From positions 6,792 to 70,791 of the forward strand of contig JAHWIP010000003.1 of assembly GCA_019322375.1 (NCBI GenBank): a DNA stretch of 64,000 bases. The letters run 5' to 3'. Both the position numbers and the translations under genes were made by a program. The notes under the pieces are model-generated. The model was not told the origin of the DNA. It saw nothing but the letters and a program-made list of their open reading frames with translations, and made no database searches. Shown here piece after piece: positions 26-46,639 of the stretch. Position 1 is the first letter of the stretch. Every line of letters begins with the position of its first letter. Origin of the DNA: Candidatus Woesearchaeota archaeon (GTDB lineage Archaea > Nanobdellota > Nanobdellia > Woesearchaeales > SM23-78).

Positions 26-1891
26 TTGGATCTTATAAAAATATATGCCATAGGGGAGGACCTCCCTTTTTCATTCTCAGTCCCTGCGATAGATAGAAAA
101 CTTAAATTTGTAGAGTTCCCTTACACCAGCAAAGGGGTATTCGGAGTGTCTCTCTCGTTTCTATTTATCTTTGGCTTTTTCACTCTGATCTCGCTCATAA
201 TAAAGTTATCATCTTTTTTTATTTATTCATTTTTTTTCATAGGACTTATCCTGGTCCTTATCTCTTACATGTATCCTGTTCACATATTCTACACCCAGAG
301 AATGATGAGTTATAGAGAAGAGATGCTTAAATCAATTATGAGAATAGCAACCTTTATCTCAATGAACACCAGCATGGAATATGCAATTATTAATACAAGG
401 CGGCATTTGTGGGGCACTCTGAAAACCCAGTTCACAGATATAGTGAACAAACTCCAAAGAAGAGACTACAACACACTGGGTGATGCTTTTGAACACTACA
501 CTCCCATATGGAACGAGGTTAACCCTGATTTTGTAAAATCCCTTAGATTGATAGAGACCGCAGCCATGTCAAAAGAAGAGGACAGGATGAAAATCCTGGA
601 TGAAGTTCAGGAAACATTAATCATAAGCTATCACACAATGGGCAAGCGGTTTGCAGAAGACCTGTCATCAAAAGCAAAATCATTAGTAACCATAGGAGTT
701 CTTTTTCCTGTAATCTCTTTAATGCTTCTTCCATTAGTATCAGTGTTTCTTCCAGAAGTGGTCAGCACTCCCTTGGTAACCTTCTTCTATACTATCCTGT
801 TTCCTGTGTTGCTCTTGGTCATGGCTCTTAATTTTTCAGCTTTGAGAATACAAGTAGATACTATTCGTATATCAGACTCTCCCTTATACAAGAAACCTTC
901 TGCATGGCTGCTTCTTATAGGAGCAATAATAATCCTTGTTTTTTCAGCACCCACAATAGCCCACCTGCTAACAATTGACATGGCAATACCTGAGAGTGTT
1001 GAGAATGAATACAAATTTGTCTCAATAATTATTTGCCTGCTTTTAGGACTTGGAGTTGCCTTGGCAATTTTTGTTCTAAGCCAGATATATGTAAGGAAAT
1101 ATCATAAGCTATGGAAAGACGTGGATATGACCGAGAGAGACCTGCCTCATCTGTTACAATCCTTTTCAACCTATCTGACCCTGAACCGGTCTGTTGAGAG
1201 CATAATATCTGATATTGTTGATGATTACAAGATTCATGGGTTTTCAAAACACCCTGTTGTAAAATTTTTCTCAAATATTATTCTCCAGTTAAAAGTAAGC
1301 AAAAAGTCAGTTGCAAATCTTGCCAAGACTCTTTTACCCAAGATTTGCCCTTCAAGAAAAGTGAGCGGAACCCTGTCCCAGATAATCTCTTTCACAGACA
1401 TTTCCCAGGAGAGCGCTGCAAAAGCTGCCAAGATGATAAGAAAACAAACCATATCCATTTATCAGCTGGATGATTACATACAAACCATGCTGAGTGAGAC
1501 CATTTCCTTAATCAACATCACAGTATCCCTGCTTGCACCCATATTATGTGCAGCTGCTGTGCTAATGTCAATGGCAATTGTGAAGTCCCTGGTATTTGTA
1601 GAGAAAATACTCTCAGCCCTGGCCTTTGGAGCCAAGATAGATCTGGCCCTGGCAAAAGTGGAATTAATCATTCCCCCAACCATAATCGAAGTTGTAGTGG
1701 CAATCTACCTCTTGGAAATGATACTGGTGCTTTCCTTATTCTCATCAAACATAAAGTATGGTCATGACATGTTTCAATTTGTTAAAACCCTGCTCTCAAA
1801 CCTGATGGGCTTTCTTATCTTTGTGGTAATCCTGGTCCTGGGTTACTACTTTCTTGAAACCCTGGTGTTTGGCGAAATCTTTGCTACGTAG
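26..1891 (+). CDS. Polytopic membrane protein, FlaJ/TadC/PilC-like (T2SS-F-type) pilus platform protein. The frame is open to the window edge, so the true start may lie upstream
   Basis: 621-aa ORF with two soluble helical segments (about aa 95-210 and 375-480), each followed by clusters of long hydrophobic helices. This is the duplicated architecture of FlaJ/TadC/GspF proteins. It heads a run of pilin-like genes. No stop codon lies between position 2 and the listed TTG start. Call is by architecture only. Confidence 0.5.
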   Translation: MDLIKIYAIGEDLPFSFSVPAIDRKLKFVEFPYTSKGVFGVSLSFLFIFGFFTLISLIIKLSSFFIYSFFFIGLILVLISYMYPVHIFYTQRMMSYREEMLKSIMRIATFISMNTSMEYAIINTRRHLWGTLKTQFTDIVNKLQRRDYNTLGDAFEHYTPIWNEVNPDFVKSLRLIETAAMSKEEDRMKILDEVQETLIISYHTMGKRFAEDLSSKAKSLVTIGVLFPVISLMLLPLVSVFLPEVVSTPLVTFFYTILFPVLLLVMALNFSALRIQVDTIRISDSPLYKKPSAWLLLIGAIIILVFSAPTIAHLLTIDMAIPESVENEYKFVSIIICLLLGLGVALAIFVLSQIYVRKYHKLWKDVDMTERDLPHLLQSFSTYLTLNRSVESIISDIVDDYKIHGFSKHPVVKFFSNIILQLKVSKKSVANLAKTLLPKICPSRKVSGTLSQIISFTDISQESAAKAAKMIRKQTISIYQLDDYIQTMLSETISLINITVSLLAPILCAAAVLMSMAIVKSLVFVEKILSALAFGAKIDLALAKVELIIPPTIIEVVVAIYLLEMILVLSLFSSNIKYGHDMFQFVKTLLSNLMGFLIFVVILVLGYYFLETLVFGEIFAT

Positions 1892-1919
1892 CGATTAATG
1901 TGCATTTCTTCTGAGTTAG

Positions 1920-2100
1920 GGGTATCTATGTTGGAGCAAGGGTGGGTGAGGCCGATTCGCGAGGGCATCCCTTAGCTTAACAATCAGAGCGGAGTCGGGG
2001 GACGCCCCAGCCGGGGGAACGGAGCCCTAGGAAAAATAACTAGGCCCGAGCTGGCCCCACCCTTGCGAAGCAACGGCTTGGAGAAATCAGGGCTAATTAG
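1920..2100. ncRNA. G+C-rich structured element of unknown class in a convergent intergenic gap
   Basis: Visibly more G+C-rich than the flanks. An 11-bp perfect outer helix (gcaagggtggg 1936-1946 with cccacccttgc 2056-2066) encloses several short hairpins: agggcatccct, ggggacgcccc, ccgggggaacgg and cctaggaaaaataactagg. No coding potential seen. Confidence 0.35.
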
Positions 2101-2161
2101 CTAAAAATTTATTTTATCTATACAGAATAATAAACAAAATATTTTTCTTTGATAATTCCAT

Positions 2162-2782
2162 TCATATTGTTTTTACAAGGTAGTCTTGCATTATTGTTTC
2201 TCCAGTATTGCCAACTAAGAAATTTTTTGGTAATCCACATCCACCGCCTTTTGCAAACTCTCCAGAATTCGGGTCAAACTCAACCAGATAACAATAATTT
2301 CTTCCAATTACTGGCACCATGTAGTACCATGGCTCTGTTCCACCATTATTTTTTATACCGAATTTAAGGATTGGCTCCTTAATTTCTTCAACTTCTTTAT
2401 CTATATTATCCCTTCCTAGAAGAATCACATTTCCTTGCACAATATCTCCTGCTTTTATCTTTAAATCTTGAAGTCCTTCTTCAGTTAAACCAGTCTCAGT
2501 TTCTATAGGCAGTATATTCTGATTTATTGTTTCTTCAACTTCATTTTTAGAAAGAACAGTTCCTATCTCATACCTACCACCTTCTACACGATTTTTTCCA
2601 ACCACCAGGTAATACCTATCCTGTCCATTTACATCAATTTTAAATAACCAACCACTTAAATACGAATAAGGCCCTTGTGGTATCTGGGTACTTAAAAGAG
2701 AGGAACTTGAAAGAAGGTACAATCCAATGATAGCACAAATCACTATTTCAATTCCAATTATTATCTTATGTGAAGTCTTCAT
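2162..2782 (-). CDS. Hypothetical N-terminally anchored extracellular protein
   Basis: 206-aa ORF. N-terminus MKTSHKIIIGIEIVICAIIGLYLLSS is a signal-anchor-type helix. No recognised domain. Confidence 0.5.
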   Translation of the reverse strand: MKTSHKIIIGIEIVICAIIGLYLLSSSSLLSTQIPQGPYSYLSGWLFKIDVNGQDRYYLVVGKNRVEGGRYEIGTVLSKNEVEETINQNILPIETETGLTEEGLQDLKIKAGDIVQGNVILLGRDNIDKEVEEIKEPILKFGIKNNGGTEPWYYMVPVIGRNYCYLVEFDPNSGEFAKGGGCGLPKNFLVGNTGETIMQDYLVKTI

Positions 2783-2922
2783 ATCTATTCTAATTTTACT
2801 GTTATCTCTATAAAAAACTTTTGTTTAAATTAGAATTATCCTGTGAACCAGCTTTGACTGGATTTATTTCTCAAGCCTCCTAAGCACAAAAGTTATAAAG
2901 GATAAAGCCAGAAATCTAGTGT

Positions 2923-3018
2923 ATGAATCGTACTTTGATTGAGATTATTGGCCTGGTGATAGCTGTGATTGCTATTGGCTTTGCTATTTACAAGGTTATC
3001 CAGGTGCTGGGTGGTTGA
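2923..3018 (+). CDS. 31-aa helix-only micro-protein (pilin-like N-terminal helix with no globular domain)
   Basis: ATG 2923 to TGA 3016-3018 gives MNRTLIEIIGLVIAVIAIGFAIYKVIQVLGG. The stop abuts the ATG of the next gene (tgaATG at 3016-3021). Below the ORF-track size cutoff. Confidence 0.4.
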   Translation: MNRTLIEIIGLVIAVIAIGFAIYKVIQVLGG

Positions 3019-3441
3019 ATGGAAACTGTTGAAATCATTGTGTTCATAGTATTTGCTTTTATGGTTGGCTTTTTAATACTGGGTGTTGTTACTGGCTGGG
3101 ATTTTGGAAAGTATAATGAGGGCTTGAAAAAAGTCTTTTCAGGTGGAGAAGGCGGGGATTTTAAGAAAACCAGTAAAGAAGAATTTGCAGCAGAGGTTTA
3201 TTCTTTTTTTCAGGAATGCAAGGATAAAGGAACCAATATATCCACTTCGTTTTATTTAAAAGAAGAAGGCTCTTTTTCAAAGCAGGAATTATTCCAGGTG
3301 TACAAGGGTTTTGGCTGGTGCAAGTCAATCCAGTCCTTGGAGAATGAGTGCGGCCAGAGAGAGGATGTGACTATGCAGGACCTCCAGCTGCCCAGAGTTG
3401 TGCGTCTGGAATGCAGAGACGAGCACTTAACCATATCTTAG
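3019..3441 (+). CDS. Small N-terminally anchored (pseudopilin-like) protein, paralog family member 1
   Basis: The hydrophobic helix starts right after Met (METVEIIVFIVFAFMVGFLILGVV). Four Cys. C-terminus RLECRDEHLTIS. Similar size and layout to 3481 and 3902. Confidence 0.6.
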   Translation: METVEIIVFIVFAFMVGFLILGVVTGWDFGKYNEGLKKVFSGGEGGDFKKTSKEEFAAEVYSFFQECKDKGTNISTSFYLKEEGSFSKQELFQVYKGFGWCKSIQSLENECGQREDVTMQDLQLPRVVRLECRDEHLTIS

Positions 3442-3480
3442 TCCATATTGGAATGAAATGTAGAGAGGAATTAAGATAAA

Positions 3481-3891
3481 ATGCAGGTAGCAGAAATTAT
3501 GATTTATGTGATAGTAGCCATTCTTGTCGGCTCTTTAATACTCCTGGCTATGAGGATTGATTATTCAAAGCAGCATTCTGGTTATCAAGAAGCTTTTGCT
3601 AATGAAGAAAAGCCTGTTTTTAAAGTAGAGTCAAAGGATTTTCCTTTGGAAGTTGCTAAGAGATGGGAGGAGTGCGGCTTGGGCACCATGAACAAGTCTT
3701 CTTCTGTTTATGTTCATGATGATGCTCTTATTAATGAGAGTTTTGTGATTACAGAACTAAAAAGGCTTGATAAATGCGATATTATTGATTGTTATAATAC
3801 AGAAAACAGATTTATACTCACAAACTTTCCTATAACCACACCAAAAATTATAAATATCCGTTGTTTTAATAATACTTTAATAATAGGATAG
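3481..3891 (+). CDS. Small N-terminally anchored (pseudopilin-like) protein, paralog family member 2
   Basis: MQVAEIMIYVIVAILVGSLILLAM helix. Motif EVAKRWEECG parallels EVYSFFQECK in 3019. Ends INIRCFNNTLIIG. Confidence 0.6.
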   Translation: MQVAEIMIYVIVAILVGSLILLAMRIDYSKQHSGYQEAFANEEKPVFKVESKDFPLEVAKRWEECGLGTMNKSSSVYVHDDALINESFVITELKRLDKCDIIDCYNTENRFILTNFPITTPKIINIRCFNNTLIIG

Positions 3892-3901
3892 GAACTTTCA
3901 A

Positions 3902-4327
3902 ATGGAACTACCAATAAGAATAATGATAATATTGTTTGTTGCAATTGTTGTAGGTGTGATGATAATAGCTTTTTCAAGAAATATCCTGGAAAGGTCCAAG
4001 GAAAAATTGGACAATCCTCCTGGCTTGGATTTATCAGATGCTGAGGAGCAAAAGATTGTTGAATTAAACAATCTGGATAATTCGCAGTTAATAGAGATGG
4101 TAAGGGCTTGTTATGAGATGCATCATGCAAAGACTTTTAACAGAGAGCTCTGCTTTGTGGTGATAGCCAGCACTTCTTCATGGACCCAGGGTGGTGTGCA
4201 AGGCTATTTTCAGCAGCCAGACAACCTGATTAGTGCCAGTATTGAGTTTGTAGGAAACCCGGATTATGCATTAAAAATATACTATGAAGCCTCTCCTGAT
4301 ATTGAGCAAATCGAGATTTCAAGATAA
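3902..4327 (+). CDS. Small N-terminally anchored (pseudopilin-like) protein, paralog family member 3
   Basis: MELPIRIMIILFVAIVVGVMIIAF helix. 141 aa, same size class as its neighbours. Confidence 0.55.
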   Translation: MELPIRIMIILFVAIVVGVMIIAFSRNILERSKEKLDNPPGLDLSDAEEQKIVELNNLDNSQLIEMVRACYEMHHAKTFNRELCFVVIASTSSWTQGGVQGYFQQPDNLISASIEFVGNPDYALKIYYEASPDIEQIEISR

Positions 4328-4440
4328 ATAATAGATAAAAATATATAAAAAACAGATAAAAATAACAAACTATATTAATAAGGATTATAATAAACTAATA
4401 ATATATAAGAATAATACATAATAAAAGAAGAGGTGATAAA

Positions 4441-5037
4441 ATGACATTAAAGGTTTCTAGAGGAAAAAAAGGCACAGACAAGCCAATTGAAATCTTTATT
4501 GCTTTATTCGTAATACTGGCAGTGGCAATGGTGCTGTTAAAGATGTTCTCCAGCCAGATAGAGTCTAAGAAGAGAGAAATGGAGGAACAACAGCTACAAG
4601 AGGCTGCAAGAGCAGCCATGGAAGACCTTAACACGTTCTGTGATTCTCAGTGCACGCATGCACACCGTTCATTAAAGGACAAAGTAACTTTTTGCACAAG
4701 CTACTATCGAGAGCACGTTGATATAAATAAAAACAATGTTGTTGATTACACAATGGCATTGGATAATATATACGGCTATTGCGAGGATAGGATTTACTGC
4801 GCTGTTTACAGGCCCTGCAGCAATCTTAACATGGAAAATTGCATTGAAATTCTATGTGATTATTTGGGTGTCAATGCTAATTTAAGAGTCTTTGACATAC
4901 AATACGGCCTTATACTGCCAGGAGATTGTTATGACGCAATAAGAACCTCTGCTGACCAGGATGACATTTTTAAAAAGGCAAATCACTGGTATACAAGCTT
5001 GCTGTCTTCATTTGGCGATCCACCAACCTGCCCTTAA
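4441..5037 (+). CDS. Pilin-like Cys-rich secreted protein
   Basis: GAGGTGA motif lies just upstream of the ATG. Leader MTLKVSRGKKGTDKP is followed by IEIFIALFVILAVAMVLL. Ten Cys in the ectodomain (hand count). Confidence 0.6.
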   Translation: MTLKVSRGKKGTDKPIEIFIALFVILAVAMVLLKMFSSQIESKKREMEEQQLQEAARAAMEDLNTFCDSQCTHAHRSLKDKVTFCTSYYREHVDINKNNVVDYTMALDNIYGYCEDRIYCAVYRPCSNLNMENCIEILCDYLGVNANLRVFDIQYGLILPGDCYDAIRTSADQDDIFKKANHWYTSLLSSFGDPPTCP

Positions 5038-5086: not shown

Positions 5087-5515
5087 ATGGACCAGGCAGT
5101 TTGGGCAGTTTTTGGTATTATAGCAGTTCTTATTGGAATCGGGATTTTATTAAATGTGCTTGGAGAGAACAAGGATGAATCAAAGTATATTCTTTTTAAA
5201 CAATCCTTAGACTCACTAAAGAACCAGTGCGATTTTGTGTGCAACTCGCCTGCAGAAACTTATTTATCAATAATGGTTGAGCTGCCTTCTGGCATGCGCC
5301 TCTACACAGACCAGAACAGGATTTGCGCTCATCTGAATATTTATAAAAAATAATCTGATGAAACCAAGTGCGTGTTATGCAGTTGCCAGGTTGTAGTAAA
5401 AAACAATGAACTCAATCTCCAAACCCCGGCTGCTCTGAAAGCTTTTTCTTCTCATAAATATTCTTGCTTTTTTGAAAGAAAAGAAAATGAGATTGAAATC
5501 GAATGTAAGGGCTGA
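5087..5515 (+). pseudogene. Pilin-like paralog interrupted by an in-frame TAA at 5351-5353 (pseudogene, readthrough or sequence error)
   Basis: The track ORF 5087-5353 (88 aa) is shorter than its 136-141-aa paralogs. The same frame continues after TAA for 53 more codons (SDETKCVLCSCQVVVKNNELNLQTPAALKAFSSHKYSCFFERKENEIEIECKG) to TGA 5513-5515. That restores a 142-residue product whose C-terminus resembles the paralog ending RLECRDE. Confidence 0.5.
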
Positions 5516-6119
5516 TATCCTTGCTAATACTGTTTTATGGTTTGGAATCCTTATAGCAGCCATGATTTGCATGGCATGGCTAGTCAAGAATCTTCGCTCG
5601 CCTTATCTTCCAACAAAAGAACTGGATAATGAGCTTGACCAGTTGCAGCTGGATTTAAACAAGGCCTGCACAATGGATTATTTTTGGAAAAGATACTATC
5701 CCAAGGTTAACAAGGGCAAGCTGATATTCAATGACTTCCAGGTGTGCATGAATGCAGGAGAATGCAAAGTGCTTTTTTTTAAGCCAACCATGCCCAATGC
5801 ATCAGGGCACTTACTTGAAGGAAAAGATATCCTTCTGCCCAATGCAACAGAATGCGAGAATATTGAGCTTTGCCAAGCACTTTTTTTTACATCAGACAAT
5901 GAACCCCCTCTTATTGATTATATTGATGATGCTCAGGGCAGCAGGATAAGGATTAATAATGCTAATGTTTGTGAGCTTAAACCAAAACCAATAACAAGAT
6001 GCAGGCTGCTTACATGTTCATTAAATATAACAGAACATTTTTCCCTGGATAAAATTGTTTACCTTAACATAACAAGAGATAAAAGTGGTGTTTTCAGTGT
6101 TCAGCCAAAAGAATCCTAA
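5487..6119 (+). CDS. Pilin-like Cys-containing secreted protein
   Basis: The track starts at TTG 5472. ATG 5487 gives MRLKSNVRADILANTVLWFGILIAAMICMAWL, a basic leader plus a hydrophobic helix. Confidence 0.55.
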   Translation: MRLKSNVRADILANTVLWFGILIAAMICMAWLVKNLRSPYLPTKELDNELDQLQLDLNKACTMDYFWKRYYPKVNKGKLIFNDFQVCMNAGECKVLFFKPTMPNASGHLLEGKDILLPNATECENIELCQALFFTSDNEPPLIDYIDDAQGSRIRINNANVCELKPKPITRCRLLTCSLNITEHFSLDKIVYLNITRDKSGVFSVQPKES

Positions 6120-6147: not shown

Positions 6148-6597
6148 ATGCAAAAAAAATCCAGGCAAAACAAGGGCATATATTCCTTAGCCACTTCCTT
6201 CTTATTTATTATCATATTAATATTTGTGGTCATAGCTGTGGTTTTCTTTTTTAACCTGTTAAAAGCCAAGAGAATGCAGGCAAGTGATGAGCTAGTAAAA
6301 TATGTGCATATAAGGGATGCTAAGAACAAGATTCTTTCATCTGAGTGCTATACGCATATTATAGAAGAAGCAGATGCTGAGCAGGAGTGCTTTCTGCCTG
6401 AAGGCTTTATCAAGGGATATGTTATTGAGATGCTGGTTTATCCTAACTGCACAACCCAGCACAAGACATGGGAGCATATGCTTGTTGAAGATGAAGCAGG
6501 GGCTGGTGAAGAAGGAGAAATTTATCCTTACTTTGTGCCTGTTCAAGCCAATACCACAGGCAATATTTGCCCTGGAAAACTAAAGGTGATATATTAA
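6148..6597 (+). CDS. Pilin-like secreted protein
   Basis: Internal ATG 6148 gives MQKKSRQNKG-IYSLATSFLFIIILIFVVIAVVFFF. The track start 6085 overlaps the previous gene. Confidence 0.5.
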   Translation: MQKKSRQNKGIYSLATSFLFIIILIFVVIAVVFFFNLLKAKRMQASDELVKYVHIRDAKNKILSSECYTHIIEEADAEQECFLPEGFIKGYVIEMLVYPNCTTQHKTWEHMLVEDEAGAGEEGEIYPYFVPVQANTTGNICPGKLKVIY

Positions 6598-6628
6598 AAG
6601 ACAGTATATTAAAAGGTGGTTCACTAAA

Positions 6629-8074
6629 ATGGGAGTTGTTGACAATATAATGGGAGCGGTTCTTGTTGTCCTTATACTATTGATTGCTGGCATTATTTAT
6701 CTGTCCCTTTTTGCACGCGAAGCATCACAGGATATTAGTGTGACCAGCACTGCTTTTTTTAATGGTATAAACACAAATAATTTTAACACTGTTCTTAAAA
6801 TAACAGAGGAGAATTCCCAAAAATCTTTGGGTGTTTTAATTTCAGAAATAACTTATTACAGGTCTTTGCCTGCGCAGTCAGATGACGGACCTAATGTAAC
6901 AGGGACTTTAAAGGATTTGCTGGATACTGCTTTTTCCACTAATGATTATTATTTCAAAGCAGAACCAGAACTAACACAGATTAGTCTGAACTTTGTTTTT
7001 GACGGCACACCCAGCTCTATGCTTAAGAGAAATGTATTAGCAAACAATCTGGTGAATATAATAGACTTTACCCAGGAAAAAATGGATAATAAAAGCAGAA
7101 GCGAGGGGCGTATTCCAAAAAACTCGGTTACAGCAGATGTATACATCATGGGTCCAAGAGGTGACAAATGCAATATCTTTGATGATTTAAACAGGGTTGA
7201 TATAAACTGCCATGGCATTCGCAGCAATGAGATATATTTAAGCGAGGACATGATGCAAGGACTTTTTGTGCCTGGTTTTCTGCTTGACTATGAAATGTAT
7301 CCTCCTTTTGGTTTTGAATGGATTGAGGAGGATGCTAACAGAGAAGACTCATACGTGGCTAATGAAGAAGATTATTATCAAGCTGACTGGGGTTTTGGAA
7401 CAGCTTATGTATCGCATAAACTAAGCAGTGCAGCTTATAGGAATCGTTTAAACCTTATTTTTCCTGTGAGTGATGAACTATCCACCAGCTCTATACCTGA
7501 TGATTGTTTTTACAAGACATTTATTCCTGACTGGGTTGTGTGCGCTCTTTGCGAGGATGAATGCCCTGTTGAAAGAGCTAACATATCCATTAGCAAGGCA
7601 ATAGAAGTGGCAACAGATTATAATCATGTGCTCATACCTGTTTATGGTTATGGAGGTGATTATGAAATAACCCATCCCCAGATTTATGATTGGAATGGCC
7701 TTGCAGGCACTTCAAGATATGTTGATGGTTTTGGAAGCCCTGGAAATACCTGGTGTGATGCTTCTGGGTGTGGTGGTTGTTCAGAACAACAAGGAGGCAT
7801 ATGCTTTCATCCTGATTGTGCAAGCATTCTGCAGGAGCACATGAACAGAATGGCTGATGAAACCAATGGAATATTCATTGACCTGACTGCTAGCCAGCAG
7901 GAATTTGCAGACACCATCTTTTCAACAATAAGCAATATCATGGACCAGTTCACAATAGAGATTGGGGTGAAAAATGAGAGCAGGGAAAGGGATGTGGTGG
8001 AAGTGAAACAGCCCCTGCCAGATGGAAATTCTCTTCCCTTGAAGTTATGGGTGTATAAGAATCAAAACATTTAA
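6629..8074 (+). CDS. N-terminally anchored large ectoprotein with a possible vWA-like (MIDAS-like) core
   Basis: MGVVDNIMGAVLVVLILLIAGIIYLSLF helix. A beta-strand-then-DxTxSSM pattern (ISLNFVFDGTPSSM) and later hydrophobic strand motifs (LIFPVSDE, VLIPVYGYGGD) resemble a vWA fold. Weak, by eye. Confidence 0.55.
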   Translation: MGVVDNIMGAVLVVLILLIAGIIYLSLFAREASQDISVTSTAFFNGINTNNFNTVLKITEENSQKSLGVLISEITYYRSLPAQSDDGPNVTGTLKDLLDTAFSTNDYYFKAEPELTQISLNFVFDGTPSSMLKRNVLANNLVNIIDFTQEKMDNKSRSEGRIPKNSVTADVYIMGPRGDKCNIFDDLNRVDINCHGIRSNEIYLSEDMMQGLFVPGFLLDYEMYPPFGFEWIEEDANREDSYVANEEDYYQADWGFGTAYVSHKLSSAAYRNRLNLIFPVSDELSTSSIPDDCFYKTFIPDWVVCALCEDECPVERANISISKAIEVATDYNHVLIPVYGYGGDYEITHPQIYDWNGLAGTSRYVDGFGSPGNTWCDASGCGGCSEQQGGICFHPDCASILQEHMNRMADETNGIFIDLTASQQEFADTIFSTISNIMDQFTIEIGVKNESRERDVVEVKQPLPDGNSLPLKLWVYKNQNI

Positions 8075-8127
8075 ATCAGAATAAATTAAATATATAGAAA
8101 GAAATAATATATAACGAGGTTGGTACT

Positions 8128-32266: not shown

Positions 32267-32626
32267 GGTAGAGCAGTTATAAGCCGCCTTTTGTCAGCCT
32301 CCACGTCTTGCATGGGCAGGCTGTGCTTAACATTCTACTAAGCGTCTCAAAGGACTTGCACCAGTGAGGACTCGCCGTTTCACCCATTCCCATGGCTTAA
32401 AGCGGTCGGGTTGTTAACTCGCGCCCTGTTGCCAGAGTGCTTCATTACCCTCATTCCTATCCATAGGTGGTCTCGTTTCTGAGCCGTTGCCCTGGCTTTC
32501 ACCAGCTAGCTTCCACTAGTCACTTTTCATGGTGGGCGGACTTTCCTAAGCAGAACAAGTCAAAACCGCGCCTTTGAAAGCGCAGGAAATGATAGGTCCT
32601 ACCTGCTGTTAAGCCACTGCCCTACC
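32267..32626 (-). ncRNA. rnpB: RNase P RNA, archaeal type A
   Basis: On the minus strand: P1 pairing GGTAGGGCAGT (5') with ACTGCTCTACC (3'). CR-I GGAAAGTCCGCCC, GGGTGAAACGGCG, and CR-V ACAAAAGGCGGCTTATA. A G+C-rich island with no ORF. Confidence 0.85.
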
Positions 32627-42184: not shown

Positions 42185-42853
42185 ATGAGCAGTTTGATTA
42201 ATTCAAGAAAAGGCATGAAAACCATTGTGACAATATTATCAGTTGTCTTGTTAGTATTCATATTCATAATATTTATTTTTCTTTTCAGGCTTGGCGCCAG
42301 GAACAAGGCAGAAAGCATAGAATCAGATTTTTCCTCTGTAAGAACAGAGTTTTTGCTTAAAACCTTTTTAAGAACACCAGCTGTTATTAGTGATGATTAC
42401 CCTGTTGAAGACTTGTTCCCTGGCATAGGAGAAGGCATTACCAATGCAGACCTGGTATCATGGACATGTAGTAAGGATAAAGACAGGAATTACAAGACCT
42501 TGAAAAACTCAATAAACACTTTTTTTGATGAGGCATATGAAGATGACTGGGAAGCATGGATAATCTATTCTAATCCTAAAGTAAAAAAGAAGGGCTTTGG
42601 GCACAAGAGTTATCTTGAAGGGATTGAGAAAAGCATAAACCGCTTGCTAACAGCAGGACAGCTGGCTTTGCTAGCAGCCAAATCATCAGACCCAGCCAGC
42701 AGGGGATTAATCTTCAAGCTTTTTATAACTCCTTATCGTGAAGCAGGCTTTGGCTCCCAGGTGGTTCCTTGCCCAGACGGAGAACTAGCCCAGATAATGC
42801 TTTACTCCCACACAGCATTTATTGAAATAAAACACCTGAAAGGCTTAACATAA
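42185..42853 (+). CDS. Pilin-like protein
   Basis: MSSLINSRKG-MKTIVTILSVVLLVFIFIIFIFLF. Confidence 0.55.
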   Translation: MSSLINSRKGMKTIVTILSVVLLVFIFIIFIFLFRLGARNKAESIESDFSSVRTEFLLKTFLRTPAVISDDYPVEDLFPGIGEGITNADLVSWTCSKDKDRNYKTLKNSINTFFDEAYEDDWEAWIIYSNPKVKKKGFGHKSYLEGIEKSINRLLTAGQLALLAAKSSDPASRGLIFKLFITPYREAGFGSQVVPCPDGELAQIMLYSHTAFIEIKHLKGLT

Positions 42854-42865
42854 GATAAAATAAAA

Positions 42866-45800
42866 ATGGATAAAGTAAAACTGAGATTAAAAAACAGAAA
42901 AGCACAGGTTTACCCGCTTTTTGTAGTGGTCTTTACAATAGTGGCCTTGACAACAGCCCTTATTGGCTTGAGCAATGCAAAAGAGGTTACTGATTTATCT
43001 GGCAGGGAAATGCTTATCGGCACCAAGCAATCAGCTGTTTTTGCATCTCTTCAAGACGCAGATGCTGTTAGTTTATTCATAGAGCAGGCAGCAGAATTTG
43101 CAGGCCAGCAAGCCCTGGATAAAATAAGAAAATCATGCTTTTTTGGAGTTGATGAGGAACAAGAAGTTGATGAGTGGGAGTCTCCATGCGGCAAGTTTGT
43201 TTATCCTCTTTGGAGCACTAATGAAAATCTTTGCCTTCCTGATTGTGAAACAGCTTTTGTCAATGCCTTTAACAAGGATTTTTTAAGCCGAACAAACAAG
43301 TATTATGAGTTCACAAACATAGAGCTGCCTATTTCTTATAACATGAGCCTGGAAATACATGACAATCATTTTTTTGTTCATGGAACCTCTGACACAGAAC
43401 TAAGGATTAATGTGGTTGATATTCAGAGCAGGATTAAGTCTCCCCTGGCAATAGCCCAGACTTATGAGGAAGGCAGGCTTATCTGGCCTGTTGATTACTC
43501 TGACCACACAATCACCTCTTGCTTTGGTGAAAGAGATGTTGTTGGGGGGAGCAAATACCATCCTGCTGTTGATATCCGGGCTCCAAAAGGAACACCAGTG
43601 CTGGCAGCTGCTTTAGGAAAAGTGATTCTTACTGACCCTTGCTGGGGAAGAATTGTTATTAATCATGGCTCTGGCTTAAGCACAGAGTATCTTCACTTGG
43701 AAAAAATTGATGTTAAGGTTAATGATGATGTGGTGCAGGGACAAAGAATAGGAACTTCTGGCAGCAATGGCTGTGACACAAGAGAGTTTGTTCCGCACCT
43801 GCATTTTGGGGTTATATATCAAGGTGTTCAGTCACCCATGCATTATAAAGGGCAGGAAATAGTTTTGAGCAACAACCATATCCAGCCCATGTGCTTGATT
43901 GAAAAAGGGTATGCTGCTAAGCCAGAAAGCAACTGCAACCAGCTTGTGAACACAGACTTAGACAAGATTTGTGAATTGTATAATCTGCCAGAAGAATTTT
44001 TTGAATCATCAGAATCATCAAAGCCATCAGAGCCATCAGAACCAGACCAAGACACTTCTTCTGAAGAAAGTGCTGATGCAGAGAATGCTGGTGCAGAAAG
44101 TGTTAATGCAGAAAGCACTGAGCTGGATTATTCTCTGGCACAGGCTCCTGGCAGCTATGCTTTTAAACCATCTTTTACCTTGAGGGTTAACAAGAAAATA
44201 GAAAACCCTATTGAGCCAGTAACAGAGTGGTTTGAGAACACCTGGAACGAGTGCGAGGATGACCCTTGGAAATGTTTAAGAGAAAAAATGAGTGAGTTTA
44301 ATGAGCAGGACTATGATTACAAGCTCATGTTTGCTGACAGGTGCGAGGAAGGCTATCACTTGTTCTATGACATACTGGAGTTTTTTGAGGACTGCTTTTC
44401 AAACCAGAAGTATGGGTGCTCATGCGAGTTTAATTTATCAGATGCTTTTTCAATAACTGACTTGCGAATAGTTTTTGACACACAAGCAAACACAGCCTCT
44501 CTTTTTTCCAAGCAGGGAGATAAGCCTGGTGATGAATATGAATTAATTGATTCATACCAGTTCTATTATGGAAGCATAACCAAGCCAGCCCCTGCTTCTC
44601 CTTATAGGTATTATGTGTATCAGCTTGATTATGATGATTATGGGGAGCTGGAAAATGCAGAGCTTATGCAAATGAAGTCATTGCTTGATGTATTTGATGT
44701 TGTGCCTTTTTTTGATTACAAAGAACTAAGACTGGCAAAGCCAGGAGAGGCTGAGCAAGGATATTTTGTGAACACAGAAACAATTCAGTGCAAGTACAAG
44801 AAGAACAAGTTCAGGCTGTGTGCAAAGCCAGCACAGGAAAGAGAAGACTTGTTCCCTATAAGGTTTGCTTTTCACTTAAAAGACAAGCCTCCTGAGCCTG
44901 TTAAAAAAGGAGATGTGGAAATTATAGAGGTGGAGGAGAGTTCTGAGTCAGATGTTGACAAGGTAATGCAGGCAGCAGGCTTTCTAGGAACCATATTCCC
45001 TCCTCTAGGCTACTTGTTCACAGCAATTAATATTCTCAGTGTGTTGGAAGACTTTAAACCAAGAAAGTTCGAGGTAATAGTTGATGTTCCTCTTGACAAG
45101 GATGGCAAACCCCTGGATGTTGCTGGCTATGAAGTTTATTGCAGTGATTACCTGACAAACATCCTGCCAGTGGATGTTTTGGATAAATATAATCCAAGTC
45201 ATTTTGTTGTGATGGCTAATGATGAGATGAATAAAAAAGTAAGCCAGCTAGACCAGTATGTTAAGAAGAACCCTTACACAGACTTTCTGAATCTTGAGAG
45301 CTGTGATGTGCCTGTGAGCAAGTTCACAGGAGAAACCATTCTTGTGCCTGGAATCAAAGGGGTTGTTAAGGACGGTAAAATGGTTTTCAACCTTCATAAA
45401 TGCGGGGACTTGGCAATAATTATAGATAAACTAATAAGAAAAGACTACTGTGTATCACTAATACCTGTTGACAAGAATGGCAACAAGATAATGGAGCATG
45501 CTGTGAGCAACTGCGCGCAAACCAATTCACTGCTTGACCTGGTTATTAGTGAGATGATAGAGGAACAGCTAGGAGAATTTATTCCTGCAAGCCTTATACC
45601 TGATAATTTAAAGCCTTATATCAAGCTGCCTGACACAAGCGATATTGTTAATGCAGTAACAGGGGAAGGCAGTTTTGACATGATAGACATTGTTAATCTT
45701 GACAAGCTGGACGCAGACATAAAAAATTATCTTGAGGAATTCGTGGTTGGAACTATTAATGAAGACATAATAGGCACTTCTGTTGTTAATTCTATTGATG

Positions 45801-46639
45801 ACTTAAAGCTCTGGGAAAAACAAACAGTGCTTAACACCCTGTCAAACCAGATAAAAAATGATGATGCAAAAACCTTGTTTGATGCCTTTGTAACAGGAGA
45901 AGGTGTTGCTGAGTCTGCCAAGCGCATGGCTTATGAAAAAGGAGTAGGATATATAGACCAGACAAAAACACCTGAGATACTTAAGGAGATAGCCAAAGGA
46001 GAAGACCCTAAAAGCCTTGCATACCAGGAACTGGTAAAAGCAGCTGAGAAAGAGCTCAGCACTGACGAGAAAAAACAGGCTCTGCTGGAGATAGCCAGGA
46101 GCAGCAGTGGAAGAGAGGTAAAAGATAAGATAATAGAAAAAGCCCTTGAAAAAGGATGCGGCGAGTCATATGGAATAAGTGCAGAGCAGGCAATCAACTG
46201 CCTTGACAATGAAGAGGTAGAAAATATTTATCACAAAGTTCTGACAGACTACAGCACACCAGACAAGGTAAAACAGTTTTTGCTTGACAAGGCAATTGAC
46301 AAGTTTGATGAAAAAACACCAGACGTGCTAAAAGAGATTGTTCTGAAAAGAGACTTTAAAGGAGCAGCAAAGGACATGCTTGAGAAAGAGCTTGACAAGC
46401 TTCCAGACGCTGTTAAGAAAGAGTTTATTACTGATATACTTGAAGGCAGGCTTCCAGATGTTGAGTACTTGCAGCAGGAACTAGTGAAAATGATACCAGC
46501 AGTAAACAATGAATATGTGAATGCCCTGCTAAAAGACGGCAATGTTAAAAACCTGATAGAATCAACCCTTAAATCAGAGATAGAAAAACAACTAGGCTCA
46601 TTCTTCTCAGATGAATGCGTGGCAATTAATAAGGATTGA
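42866..46639 (+). CDS. Giant (1257-aa) pilin-like protein with an M23 (LytM-type) metallopeptidase domain
   Basis: KNRKA-QVYPLFVVVFTIVALTTALIGL N-terminus. M23 motifs YHPAVDIRAP (HxxxD) and PHLHFGV (HxH) at about nt 43478-43841. Acidic S/E linker, an internal hydrophobic segment at about nt 44972-45046, and a K/E-rich repetitive helical C-terminus. Confidence 0.7.
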   Translation: MDKVKLRLKNRKAQVYPLFVVVFTIVALTTALIGLSNAKEVTDLSGREMLIGTKQSAVFASLQDADAVSLFIEQAAEFAGQQALDKIRKSCFFGVDEEQEVDEWESPCGKFVYPLWSTNENLCLPDCETAFVNAFNKDFLSRTNKYYEFTNIELPISYNMSLEIHDNHFFVHGTSDTELRINVVDIQSRIKSPLAIAQTYEEGRLIWPVDYSDHTITSCFGERDVVGGSKYHPAVDIRAPKGTPVLAAALGKVILTDPCWGRIVINHGSGLSTEYLHLEKIDVKVNDDVVQGQRIGTSGSNGCDTREFVPHLHFGVIYQGVQSPMHYKGQEIVLSNNHIQPMCLIEKGYAAKPESNCNQLVNTDLDKICELYNLPEEFFESSESSKPSEPSEPDQDTSSEESADAENAGAESVNAESTELDYSLAQAPGSYAFKPSFTLRVNKKIENPIEPVTEWFENTWNECEDDPWKCLREKMSEFNEQDYDYKLMFADRCEEGYHLFYDILEFFEDCFSNQKYGCSCEFNLSDAFSITDLRIVFDTQANTASLFSKQGDKPGDEYELIDSYQFYYGSITKPAPASPYRYYVYQLDYDDYGELENAELMQMKSLLDVFDVVPFFDYKELRLAKPGEAEQGYFVNTETIQCKYKKNKFRLCAKPAQEREDLFPIRFAFHLKDKPPEPVKKGDVEIIEVEESSESDVDKVMQAAGFLGTIFPPLGYLFTAINILSVLEDFKPRKFEVIVDVPLDKDGKPLDVAGYEVYCSDYLTNILPVDVLDKYNPSHFVVMANDEMNKKVSQLDQYVKKNPYTDFLNLESCDVPVSKFTGETILVPGIKGVVKDGKMVFNLHKCGDLAIIIDKLIRKDYCVSLIPVDKNGNKIMEHAVSNCAQTNSLLDLVISEMIEEQLGEFIPASLIPDNLKPYIKLPDTSDIVNAVTGEGSFDMIDIVNLDKLDADIKNYLEEFVVGTINEDIIGTSVVNSIDDLKLWEKQTVLNTLSNQIKNDDAKTLFDAFVTGEGVAESAKRMAYEKGVGYIDQTKTPEILKEIAKGEDPKSLAYQELVKAAEKELSTDEKKQALLEIARSSSGREVKDKIIEKALEKGCGESYGISAEQAINCLDNEEVENIYHKVLTDYSTPDKVKQFLLDKAIDKFDEKTPDVLKEIVLKRDFKGAAKDMLEKELDKLPDAVKKEFITDILEGRLPDVEYLQQELVKMIPAVNNEYVNALLKDGNVKNLIESTLKSEIEKQLGSFFSDECVAINKD

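What the first reader, a model, noticed from the sequence alone, without database searches (positions are those of the whole stretch)
5087..5515. In-frame TAA splits a pilin-like paralog; the downstream half still looks coding
The ORF 5087-5353 ends ...ICAHLNIYKK-TAA inside an A-run (ttataaaaaataatct). Reading on in the same frame gives 53 further sense codons (SDETKCVLCSCQVVVKNNELNLQTPAALKAFSSHKYSCFFERKENEIEIECKG) before TGA at 5513-5515. The joined product of ~142 residues matches the 136-141-aa paralogs at 3019, 3481 and 3902. It also regains the paralog-style C-terminus (IEIECKG versus RLECRDE and NIRCFNN). Possible explanations are a recent nonsense mutation, a sequencing or assembly error in the homopolymer, or programmed readthrough. 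TAA is used as a normal stop elsewhere in the window, so this is not a genome-wide reassignment.
Basis: seen in the sequence. Interest (0 to 1): 0.55.

Follow-up and report, generated by a model that had tools for sequence, protein, structure and literature searches.

The report
Pilin-like gene broken by one stop
A small pilin-shaped surface-protein gene of a Woesearchaeota archaeon is cut in two by a single C-to-A change that turned a tyrosine codon into a TAA stop; this looks like an ordinary, recent gene-inactivating mutation (or a base error in the assembly), not a special decoding mechanism.

Summary
ORF 5087-5353 ends at TAA (5351-5353), and the same frame runs 53 more sense codons to TGA 5513-5515. 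The two pieces are one gene. Seven distinct orthologs from other Woesearchaeota assemblies are uninterrupted, at 137-142 aa. About 115 of 127 family representatives are also single full-length proteins. All six orthologs that keep this loop have TAC (Tyr) where the window has TAA, so the cause is one C-to-A substitution and not a homopolymer indel. The downstream half shows no decay: dN/dS is 0.15 against the closest relative, and the window lineage shows no rate acceleration. The change is therefore recent, or an assembly error. Programmed readthrough has no support: the stop is not conserved in any relative, there is no downstream RNA structure, and TAA is the commonest terminator in the window (29 of 57 ORFs). 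The truncated product would lose five of eight strands and five of eight cysteines, including the partner of a perfectly co-varying Cys pair. The protein has a high-confidence pilin-like shape and sits in a conserved type-IV-pilus-like locus. It is not detectably a sequence paralog of its neighbours. Read support could not be tested. Verdict: ordinary, low interest.

The parts
5087..5353 (+). N-terminal 88 codons of the interrupted gene plus the premature TAA. It is annotated at NCBI as the hypothetical protein KY348_00245 / MBW2990115.1.
   Evidence: It aligns to residues 1-88 of the intact orthologs.
5351..5353 (+). Premature TAA stop. It sits at the column where all six orthologs that keep this loop have TAC (Tyr).
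   Evidence: Codon alignment.
5354..5515 (+). C-terminal 53 codons plus the original TGA of the same gene. No start codon with a ribosome-binding site precedes them.
   Evidence: dN/dS is 0.15 against L001. This part holds five of the eight family cysteines.
5487..6119 (+). Next gene of the cluster (210 aa). Its ATG lies 29 nt before the TGA of the interrupted gene, and this overlap is conserved in every ortholog locus.
26..1891 (+). 621-aa polytopic membrane protein that heads the cluster in the window. In L008 its ortholog follows a T2SSE-type ATPase.
   Evidence: 65% identity to L008 1447-3339.
2923..5037 (+). Upstream small genes of the cluster (31, 140, 136, 141 and 198 aa), each with an N-terminal hydrophobic helix. 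All are full length compared with their orthologs.
6148..9744 (+). Downstream genes of the cluster (149, 481 and 538 aa). They are syntenic with L002, L007, L008 and L009.

Best explanation
5087-5515 is one gene for a roughly 142-residue protein with a pilin-like shape: a 51-residue N-terminal helix followed by a beta-sheet with four probable disulfides. It belongs to a conserved type-IV-pilus-like cluster of Woesearchaeota. In this genome a single C-to-A substitution at 5353 changed a conserved TAC (Tyr) codon, in the turn between strands 3 and 4, into TAA. Translation ends there and gives an 88-residue fragment that lacks five strands and five cysteines and is very probably non-functional. 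The mutation is recent, so the downstream 53 codons have not yet decayed. Shown: the two halves are one gene, the ancestral codon was TAC, the downstream half is not decayed, and the stop is not conserved. Inferred: the A at 5353 is really in the organism's DNA, and the fragment is non-functional.
For: Seven distinct orthologs are uninterrupted at 137-142 aa. All six that keep the loop have TAC at the stop column. An HMM search of 1.84 billion representatives found 127 family members. About 115 are single full-length matches of 120-151 aa, and the window's 88-aa product is a truncated outlier. Against L001, dN/dS is 0.15 downstream (Fisher p = 2e-6 for dN below dS) and 0.25 upstream. Window-lineage amino-acid changes downstream number 2, against 5 on the L001 lineage, and distances to outgroups are equal, so there is no relaxation. 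AlphaFold2 with 90 sequences gives pLDDT 95.6, and residue 89 lies in the turn between strands 78-84 and 90-97. C48 (before the stop) and C98 (after it) co-occur perfectly, 92 both and 28 neither, p = 6e-28. Six other Cys are nearly invariant. Every other gene of the cluster is full length. There is no start codon with a Shine-Dalgarno-like motif after the stop. The first candidate is GTG 5372, which would drop the invariant C95.
Against: No reads and no second assembly of this population were available. The 88-aa protein is seen on one contig only, and neither collection scan found the window's own genome. An assembly base error would therefore look identical. The complete absence of decay downstream also fits an artefact, or a stop that is tolerated.
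Confidence: 0.68

Rival explanations
1. The TAA is an error of sequencing, consensus calling or binning: a substitution at 5353, or a minor allele taken into the MAG consensus. On this view the organism has an intact TAC or TAT codon and a normal 142-aa protein.
For: The downstream half is perfectly intact and shows purifying selection with no relaxation. Only one contig carries this sequence. The site lies next to a low-complexity A-rich stretch.
Against: A homopolymer-length error is excluded, because frame and alignment are kept on both sides. Substitution errors in short-read consensus are rare (general knowledge). All other cluster genes in the window are full length, so there is no sign of poor sequence quality.
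Confidence: 0.2
2. The UAA is read through at a useful rate, for example by near-cognate tRNA-Tyr. Full-length protein is then still made, and selection keeps the downstream half.
For: The downstream half is undecayed. The ancestral residue is Tyr, and from general knowledge of eukaryotic readthrough, Tyr is one of the amino acids that near-cognate decoding inserts at UAA. The site is a variable surface turn that would tolerate any residue; the L004 group deletes it altogether.
Against: No ortholog or family representative carries a stop at this place, so nothing is 'programmed' or conserved. The RNA downstream folds no better than shuffles, z = -0.02. UAA followed by U is used at 7 of 29 normal TAA terminators, and AAA AAA TAA also ends a normal ORF at 15040-15630. 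In Archaea, readthrough is established only for Sec (UGA) and Pyl (UAG) (PMC8211752; PMC8037382 abstract).
Confidence: 0.05
3. The gene is functionally split. The 88-aa N-terminal piece and a separately initiated C-terminal piece are both made and work together or alone.
For: Both pieces are open reading frames. A GTG at 5372 opens a 47-codon ORF.
Against: No ribosome-binding motif precedes GTG 5372, and that start would remove the invariant C95. The C-terminal piece would have no signal or anchor helix. The C48-C98 co-variation and the single beta-sheet spanning both parts argue for one folding unit. No other family member shows a clean split at this loop; the short representatives are scattered fragments.
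Confidence: 0.03
4. TAA is reassigned to a sense codon in this organism.
For: None beyond this single in-frame TAA at a Tyr column.
Against: TAA ends 29 of 57 long ORFs in the window, including six genes of this same cluster. The other same-frame ORF pairs found were chance pairs or adjacent genes with their own start codon.
Confidence: 0.01

Closest known systems
Ordinary nonsense-mutation pseudogene, or a segregating loss-of-function allele, in a prokaryotic genome
   Same: A single-base change creates a premature stop relative to intact orthologs. The rest of the gene is still intact because the event is young.
   Different: Nothing is different in kind. What is missing is read-level confirmation that the change is real.
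Divergent 'dark-matter' pilins of DPANN type IV pili loci (Makarova, Wolf and Koonin 2019, PMC6393860; Makarova, Koonin and Albers 2016, cited there)
   Same: A cluster of small proteins with N-terminal hydrophobic helices lies next to a FlaI/PilB-type ATPase and a polytopic membrane protein. The proteins have no detectable sequence similarity to known pilins.
Recoding by stop-codon readthrough in Archaea (selenocysteine at UGA, pyrrolysine at UAG)
   Same: An in-frame stop inside a conserved coding sequence.
   Different: The codon here is UAA, the stop is not conserved in any relative, and there is no downstream element.

Membership tests
Gene disrupted by a nonsense mutation (pseudogene) | Premature in-frame stop at a sense position of intact orthologs | tested here: met
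   TAA aligns with TAC in six orthologs, and seven orthologs are uninterrupted. About 115 of 127 family representatives are full length.
Gene disrupted by a nonsense mutation (pseudogene) | The stop is present in the organism's DNA (read support) | not testable with these tools
   No reads were available. Only one contig carries the sequence, and the window's genome was not found in the two collection scans.
Gene disrupted by a nonsense mutation (pseudogene) | Relaxed selection or decay downstream of the stop | tested here: not met
   Downstream dN/dS is 0.15, there is no lineage acceleration, and there are no further stops or indels. This fits only a very young event or an artefact.
Programmed stop-codon readthrough | The stop codon is conserved at the site among relatives | tested here: not met
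   No relative has a stop there.
Programmed stop-codon readthrough | A stimulatory sequence context or RNA structure 3' of the stop | tested here: not met
   The fold of 5345-5450 has z = -0.02 against shuffles. The UAA-U and AAA-AAA-UAA contexts also occur at normal terminators.
Programmed stop-codon readthrough | An extended protein product is observed | not testable with these tools
   This needs proteomics or a reporter assay.
Stop-codon reassignment (TAA as a sense codon) | TAA is not used as a terminator, and in-frame TAA recurs in many genes | tested here: not met
   29 of 57 ORFs end in TAA. No other convincing TAA-split gene was found in the window.
Type IV pilin / archaeal pilin (class III signal peptide protein) | A long hydrophobic N-terminal alpha-helix followed by a beta-sheet head | tested here: met
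   The AlphaFold2 model of ortholog P0001 with 90 sequences has pLDDT 95.6, helix 2-52 and then eight strands.
Type IV pilin / archaeal pilin (class III signal peptide protein) | A class III signal peptide: a short charged leader with a prepilin-peptidase cleavage site before the helix | tested here: not met
   The family starts directly M-[DE]-[EQ]-x-[VI]-W with no leader. This was judged by eye; no predictor was run.
Type IV pilin / archaeal pilin (class III signal peptide protein) | A match to a curated pilin sequence model | tested here: not met
   There was no Pfam or NCBIfam hit for the protein or for 90 family members.
Type IV pilin / archaeal pilin (class III signal peptide protein) | Structural similarity to solved pilins | tested here: inconclusive
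Type IV pilin / archaeal pilin (class III signal peptide protein) | Encoded beside a T4P-type ATPase and a platform membrane protein | tested here: met
   In the syntenic locus L008 a T2SSE ATPase (PF00437, E = 2.5e-17) precedes the 630-aa membrane protein, which is orthologous to window 26-1891. The membrane protein itself has no Pfam match. The ATPase lies outside the window.
Paralog of the neighbouring 136-141-aa genes (3019, 3481, 3902) | Detectable sequence homology beyond the N-terminal helix | tested here: not met
   hhalign aligns residues 1-26 only, at probability 7%. There are no tblastn cross-hits. Pairwise identity is 13-21%.

The most novel reading that the evidence does not exclude
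The UAA at 5351 is decoded at a physiologically useful rate by a standard near-cognate tRNA (Tyr), so the full-length pilin-like protein is still made. This would be stop-codon readthrough with a canonical amino acid in an archaeon, which has not been established (PMC8211752).
Probability: 0.04. Interest if true: 0.6.

Novelty: new member of a known kind. Interest (0 to 1): 0.13.

Why it matters
For annotation, KY348_00245 (the 88-aa 'hypothetical protein') should be labelled as the front part of a disrupted 142-codon gene. If the change is real, one minor component of this archaeon's pilus-like surface apparatus has been lost in this strain. That is routine strain-level variation in surface genes. 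A side result is more useful than the stop itself. The gene belongs to an undescribed family, with at least 127 clusters at 50% identity and no Pfam or NCBIfam model. The family has a very confident pilin-shaped fold, eight patterned cysteines and no class III leader. It lies in a conserved DPANN type-IV-pilus-like locus.

Tried and rejected
- **Homopolymer indel error:** rejected. The codon alignment to L001 has no gap, and the frame is the same on both sides.
- **Slippage in the A6 run as a rescue or phase switch:** rejected by reading the sequence. Adding or removing one A leads to a new stop within 3 to 17 codons.
- **Genome-wide TAA reassignment:** rejected.
- **Other split genes in the window:** a scan for same-frame open segments separated by one stop gave only chance pairs and adjacent genes with their own ATG, such as 42185-42853 and 42866-46639.
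- **Readthrough-stimulating RNA structure:** none found.
- **Independent assemblies of the same population:** none found. The protein search, cluster look-up, genome-contig scan and metagenome-contig scan gave only relatives at 80% identity or less.
- **Sequence paralogy with the neighbours:** not detectable.
- **Pfam and NCBIfam identification of the small proteins and of the 621-aa membrane protein:** no hits.
- **Foldseek against PDB with the first, shallow model:** nothing significant.

Full report
**Observation.** The window is archaeal: it holds an archaeal RNase P RNA at 32269-32573. It matches an NCBI contig of a Candidatus Woesearchaeota MAG. The 88-aa ORF is identical to MBW2990115.1 / KY348_00245, on a contig of 71,427 nt. 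Translating 5087-5515 gives 88 sense codons, TAA at 5351-5353 directly after an A6 run, 53 further sense codons, and TGA at 5513-5515. A random sequence of this composition would stay open for 53 codons about 2.3% of the time, so the open frame alone is only suggestive.

**The two halves are one gene.** A protein search with the joined sequence returned three uninterrupted homologs that cover 100% of it. They are P0001 (142 aa, 80% identity), P0002 (139 aa, 59%) and P0004 (137 aa, 44%). The window's own 88-aa fragment also came back. Scans of species-representative genomes and of JGI metagenomes added four more loci (L007-L010), representing three further distinct sequences. One of them lies on a complete 1.84-Mb Woesearchaeota chromosome. 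All are uninterrupted. A profile search of 1.84 billion cluster representatives found 127 family members. About 115 are single full-length matches of 120-151 aa. The window's product is a truncated outlier among a handful of fragments.

**What happened at the site.** In the codon alignment, all six distinct orthologs that keep this loop have TAC (Tyr) exactly where the window has TAA. The most distant group (L004-L006) has a six-codon deletion there. Across 120 full-length family members the column is Tyr, Phe or Leu. The defect is therefore one C-to-A substitution at 5353.
- There is no gap on either side of the stop, so it is not a length error in the A-run.
- Adding or removing one A would not restore a long frame.

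**State of the downstream half.** Nei-Gojobori estimates against the closest relative L001 give dN/dS 0.25 upstream and 0.15 downstream.
- Downstream, 17.5 non-synonymous differences fall on 128 sites and 17.5 synonymous differences on 31 sites, Fisher p = 2e-6.
- Using the other orthologs as outgroups, the window lineage has 2 unambiguous amino-acid changes downstream, against 5 on the L001 lineage.
- dN from the window and dN from L001 to each outgroup are the same.
- Of 18 downstream columns invariant among the intact orthologs, the window departs at one, a conservative Tyr to Phe change.

There is thus no sign of relaxed selection. The stop is very young relative to the split from L001, or it is not real, or it is tolerated.

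The locus is conserved gene for gene in L002, L007, L008 and L009. In L008 it is headed by a T2SSE-type ATPase (PF00437, E = 2.5e-17), followed by the ortholog of the window's 621-aa membrane protein. This agrees with the published description of DPANN pilus loci whose pilins are unrecognisable by sequence (PMC6393860). The family starts M-[DE]-[EQ]-x-[VI]-W without a class III leader, so strict membership among prepilins is not established. The claim of paralogy with the neighbours at 3019, 3481 and 3902 is not supported, because only the N-terminal helix aligns (hhalign probability 7%).

**Consequence of the stop.** Residue 89 lies in the turn between strands 78-84 and 90-97. The 88-residue product keeps the helix and three strands, and it loses five strands and five of eight cysteines. 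Six cysteines are nearly invariant. The other two, C48 before the stop and C98 after it, are present together in 92 members and absent together in 28 (p = 6e-28). That pattern suggests a disulfide joining the two halves. The fragment is therefore very unlikely to fold; this step is inferred. No start codon with a ribosome-binding motif follows the stop. GTG 5372 would remove the invariant C95, so a functional two-piece arrangement is unlikely. The next gene's ATG lies exactly 29 nt before the gene's TGA in all eight loci. A premature stop 136 nt upstream might weaken any translational coupling, which is also inference.

**Rivals.**
- **Programmed readthrough.** It lacks every hallmark I could test. 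The stop is not conserved. The downstream RNA folds no better than shuffles, z = -0.02. UAA-U and AAA-AAA-UAA also occur at normal terminators in the window. In Archaea, readthrough is established only for Sec and Pyl (PMC8211752).
- **Reassignment of TAA.** It is excluded by 29 of 57 ORFs ending in TAA.
- **Substitution error or minority allele in the MAG consensus.** This cannot be excluded, because no reads or second assembly of this population could be found. I give it about 0.2 and a real young nonsense allele about 0.68. That weighting rests on general knowledge that consensus substitution errors are rarer than real pseudogenes, and on the absence of other damage in the cluster.

**Verdict.** The feature is an ordinary single-base disruption of a gene from an undescribed pilin-shaped family. 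Interest is low.

Noticed in passing
window 8128-9744; L008 8943-12224; L002 5606-8941: The last large cluster protein carries two Hint/intein-like modules in L008 (1093 aa; PF01079, PF14890) and in L002 (1111 aa). The window's ortholog (538 aa) lacks them and aligns only to the N-terminal ~410 residues. The residue after the first 'HN' is Lys, so these may be autoprocessing Hint domains rather than classical inteins.
   Followed up: partly
window 5487-5515, and the same place in L001, L002, L004, L007-L010: The ATG of the next gene lies exactly 29 nt before the TGA of the target gene in all eight loci. It is formed by the invariant Glu-Asn codons (GAA AAT G), so the last nine codons are dual-coding.
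   Followed up: yes
window 5087-5515 and family alignment A6: The gene belongs to an undescribed family with at least 127 clusters at 50% identity and no Pfam or NCBIfam model. The fold is very confident, pLDDT 95.6. Six cysteines are nearly invariant, and one further pair (C48/C98) is gained or lost strictly together. The N-terminus is M-[DE]-[EQ]-x-[VI]-W with no leader peptide.
   Followed up: partly
window 1892-2922: About 1 kb lies between the membrane-protein gene and the 31-aa gene, and it holds a minus-strand 206-aa ORF (2162-2782). In L008 and L009 the corresponding gap is under 200 nt. This may be an insertion in the window's lineage.
   Followed up: no
window 3441-3481 versus L008 3931-4374, L002 680-1120: The window lacks the 146/147-aa paralog that sits between the 140-aa and 136-aa genes in L002, L007, L008 and L009. 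The 198-aa gene (4441-5037) is also 37-45 residues shorter at its C-terminus than its orthologs (235-243 aa).
   Followed up: partly
window 5342-5356 versus L001: Five of the nucleotide differences from the closest ortholog cluster in the four codons around the stop: TCT GAA AAA TAC AGT becomes TAT AAA AAA TAA TCT. Three are changes to A, and one is a Ser codon-family switch (AGT/TCT). This is a variable surface turn, so clustering is expected, but a single multi-nucleotide event cannot be excluded.
   Followed up: no
proteins P0082, P0103, P0109, P0123 (family representatives): A few other family representatives are fragments or look frameshifted. For example, P0082 matches the profile only to position 102 and then diverges. 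They could be contig-edge partials or further broken copies; their contigs could not be inspected.
   Followed up: no
window 32269-32573 (-): Archaeal RNase P RNA (RF00373, 121 bits). No tRNA genes were found in the whole 64-kb window.
   Followed up: no
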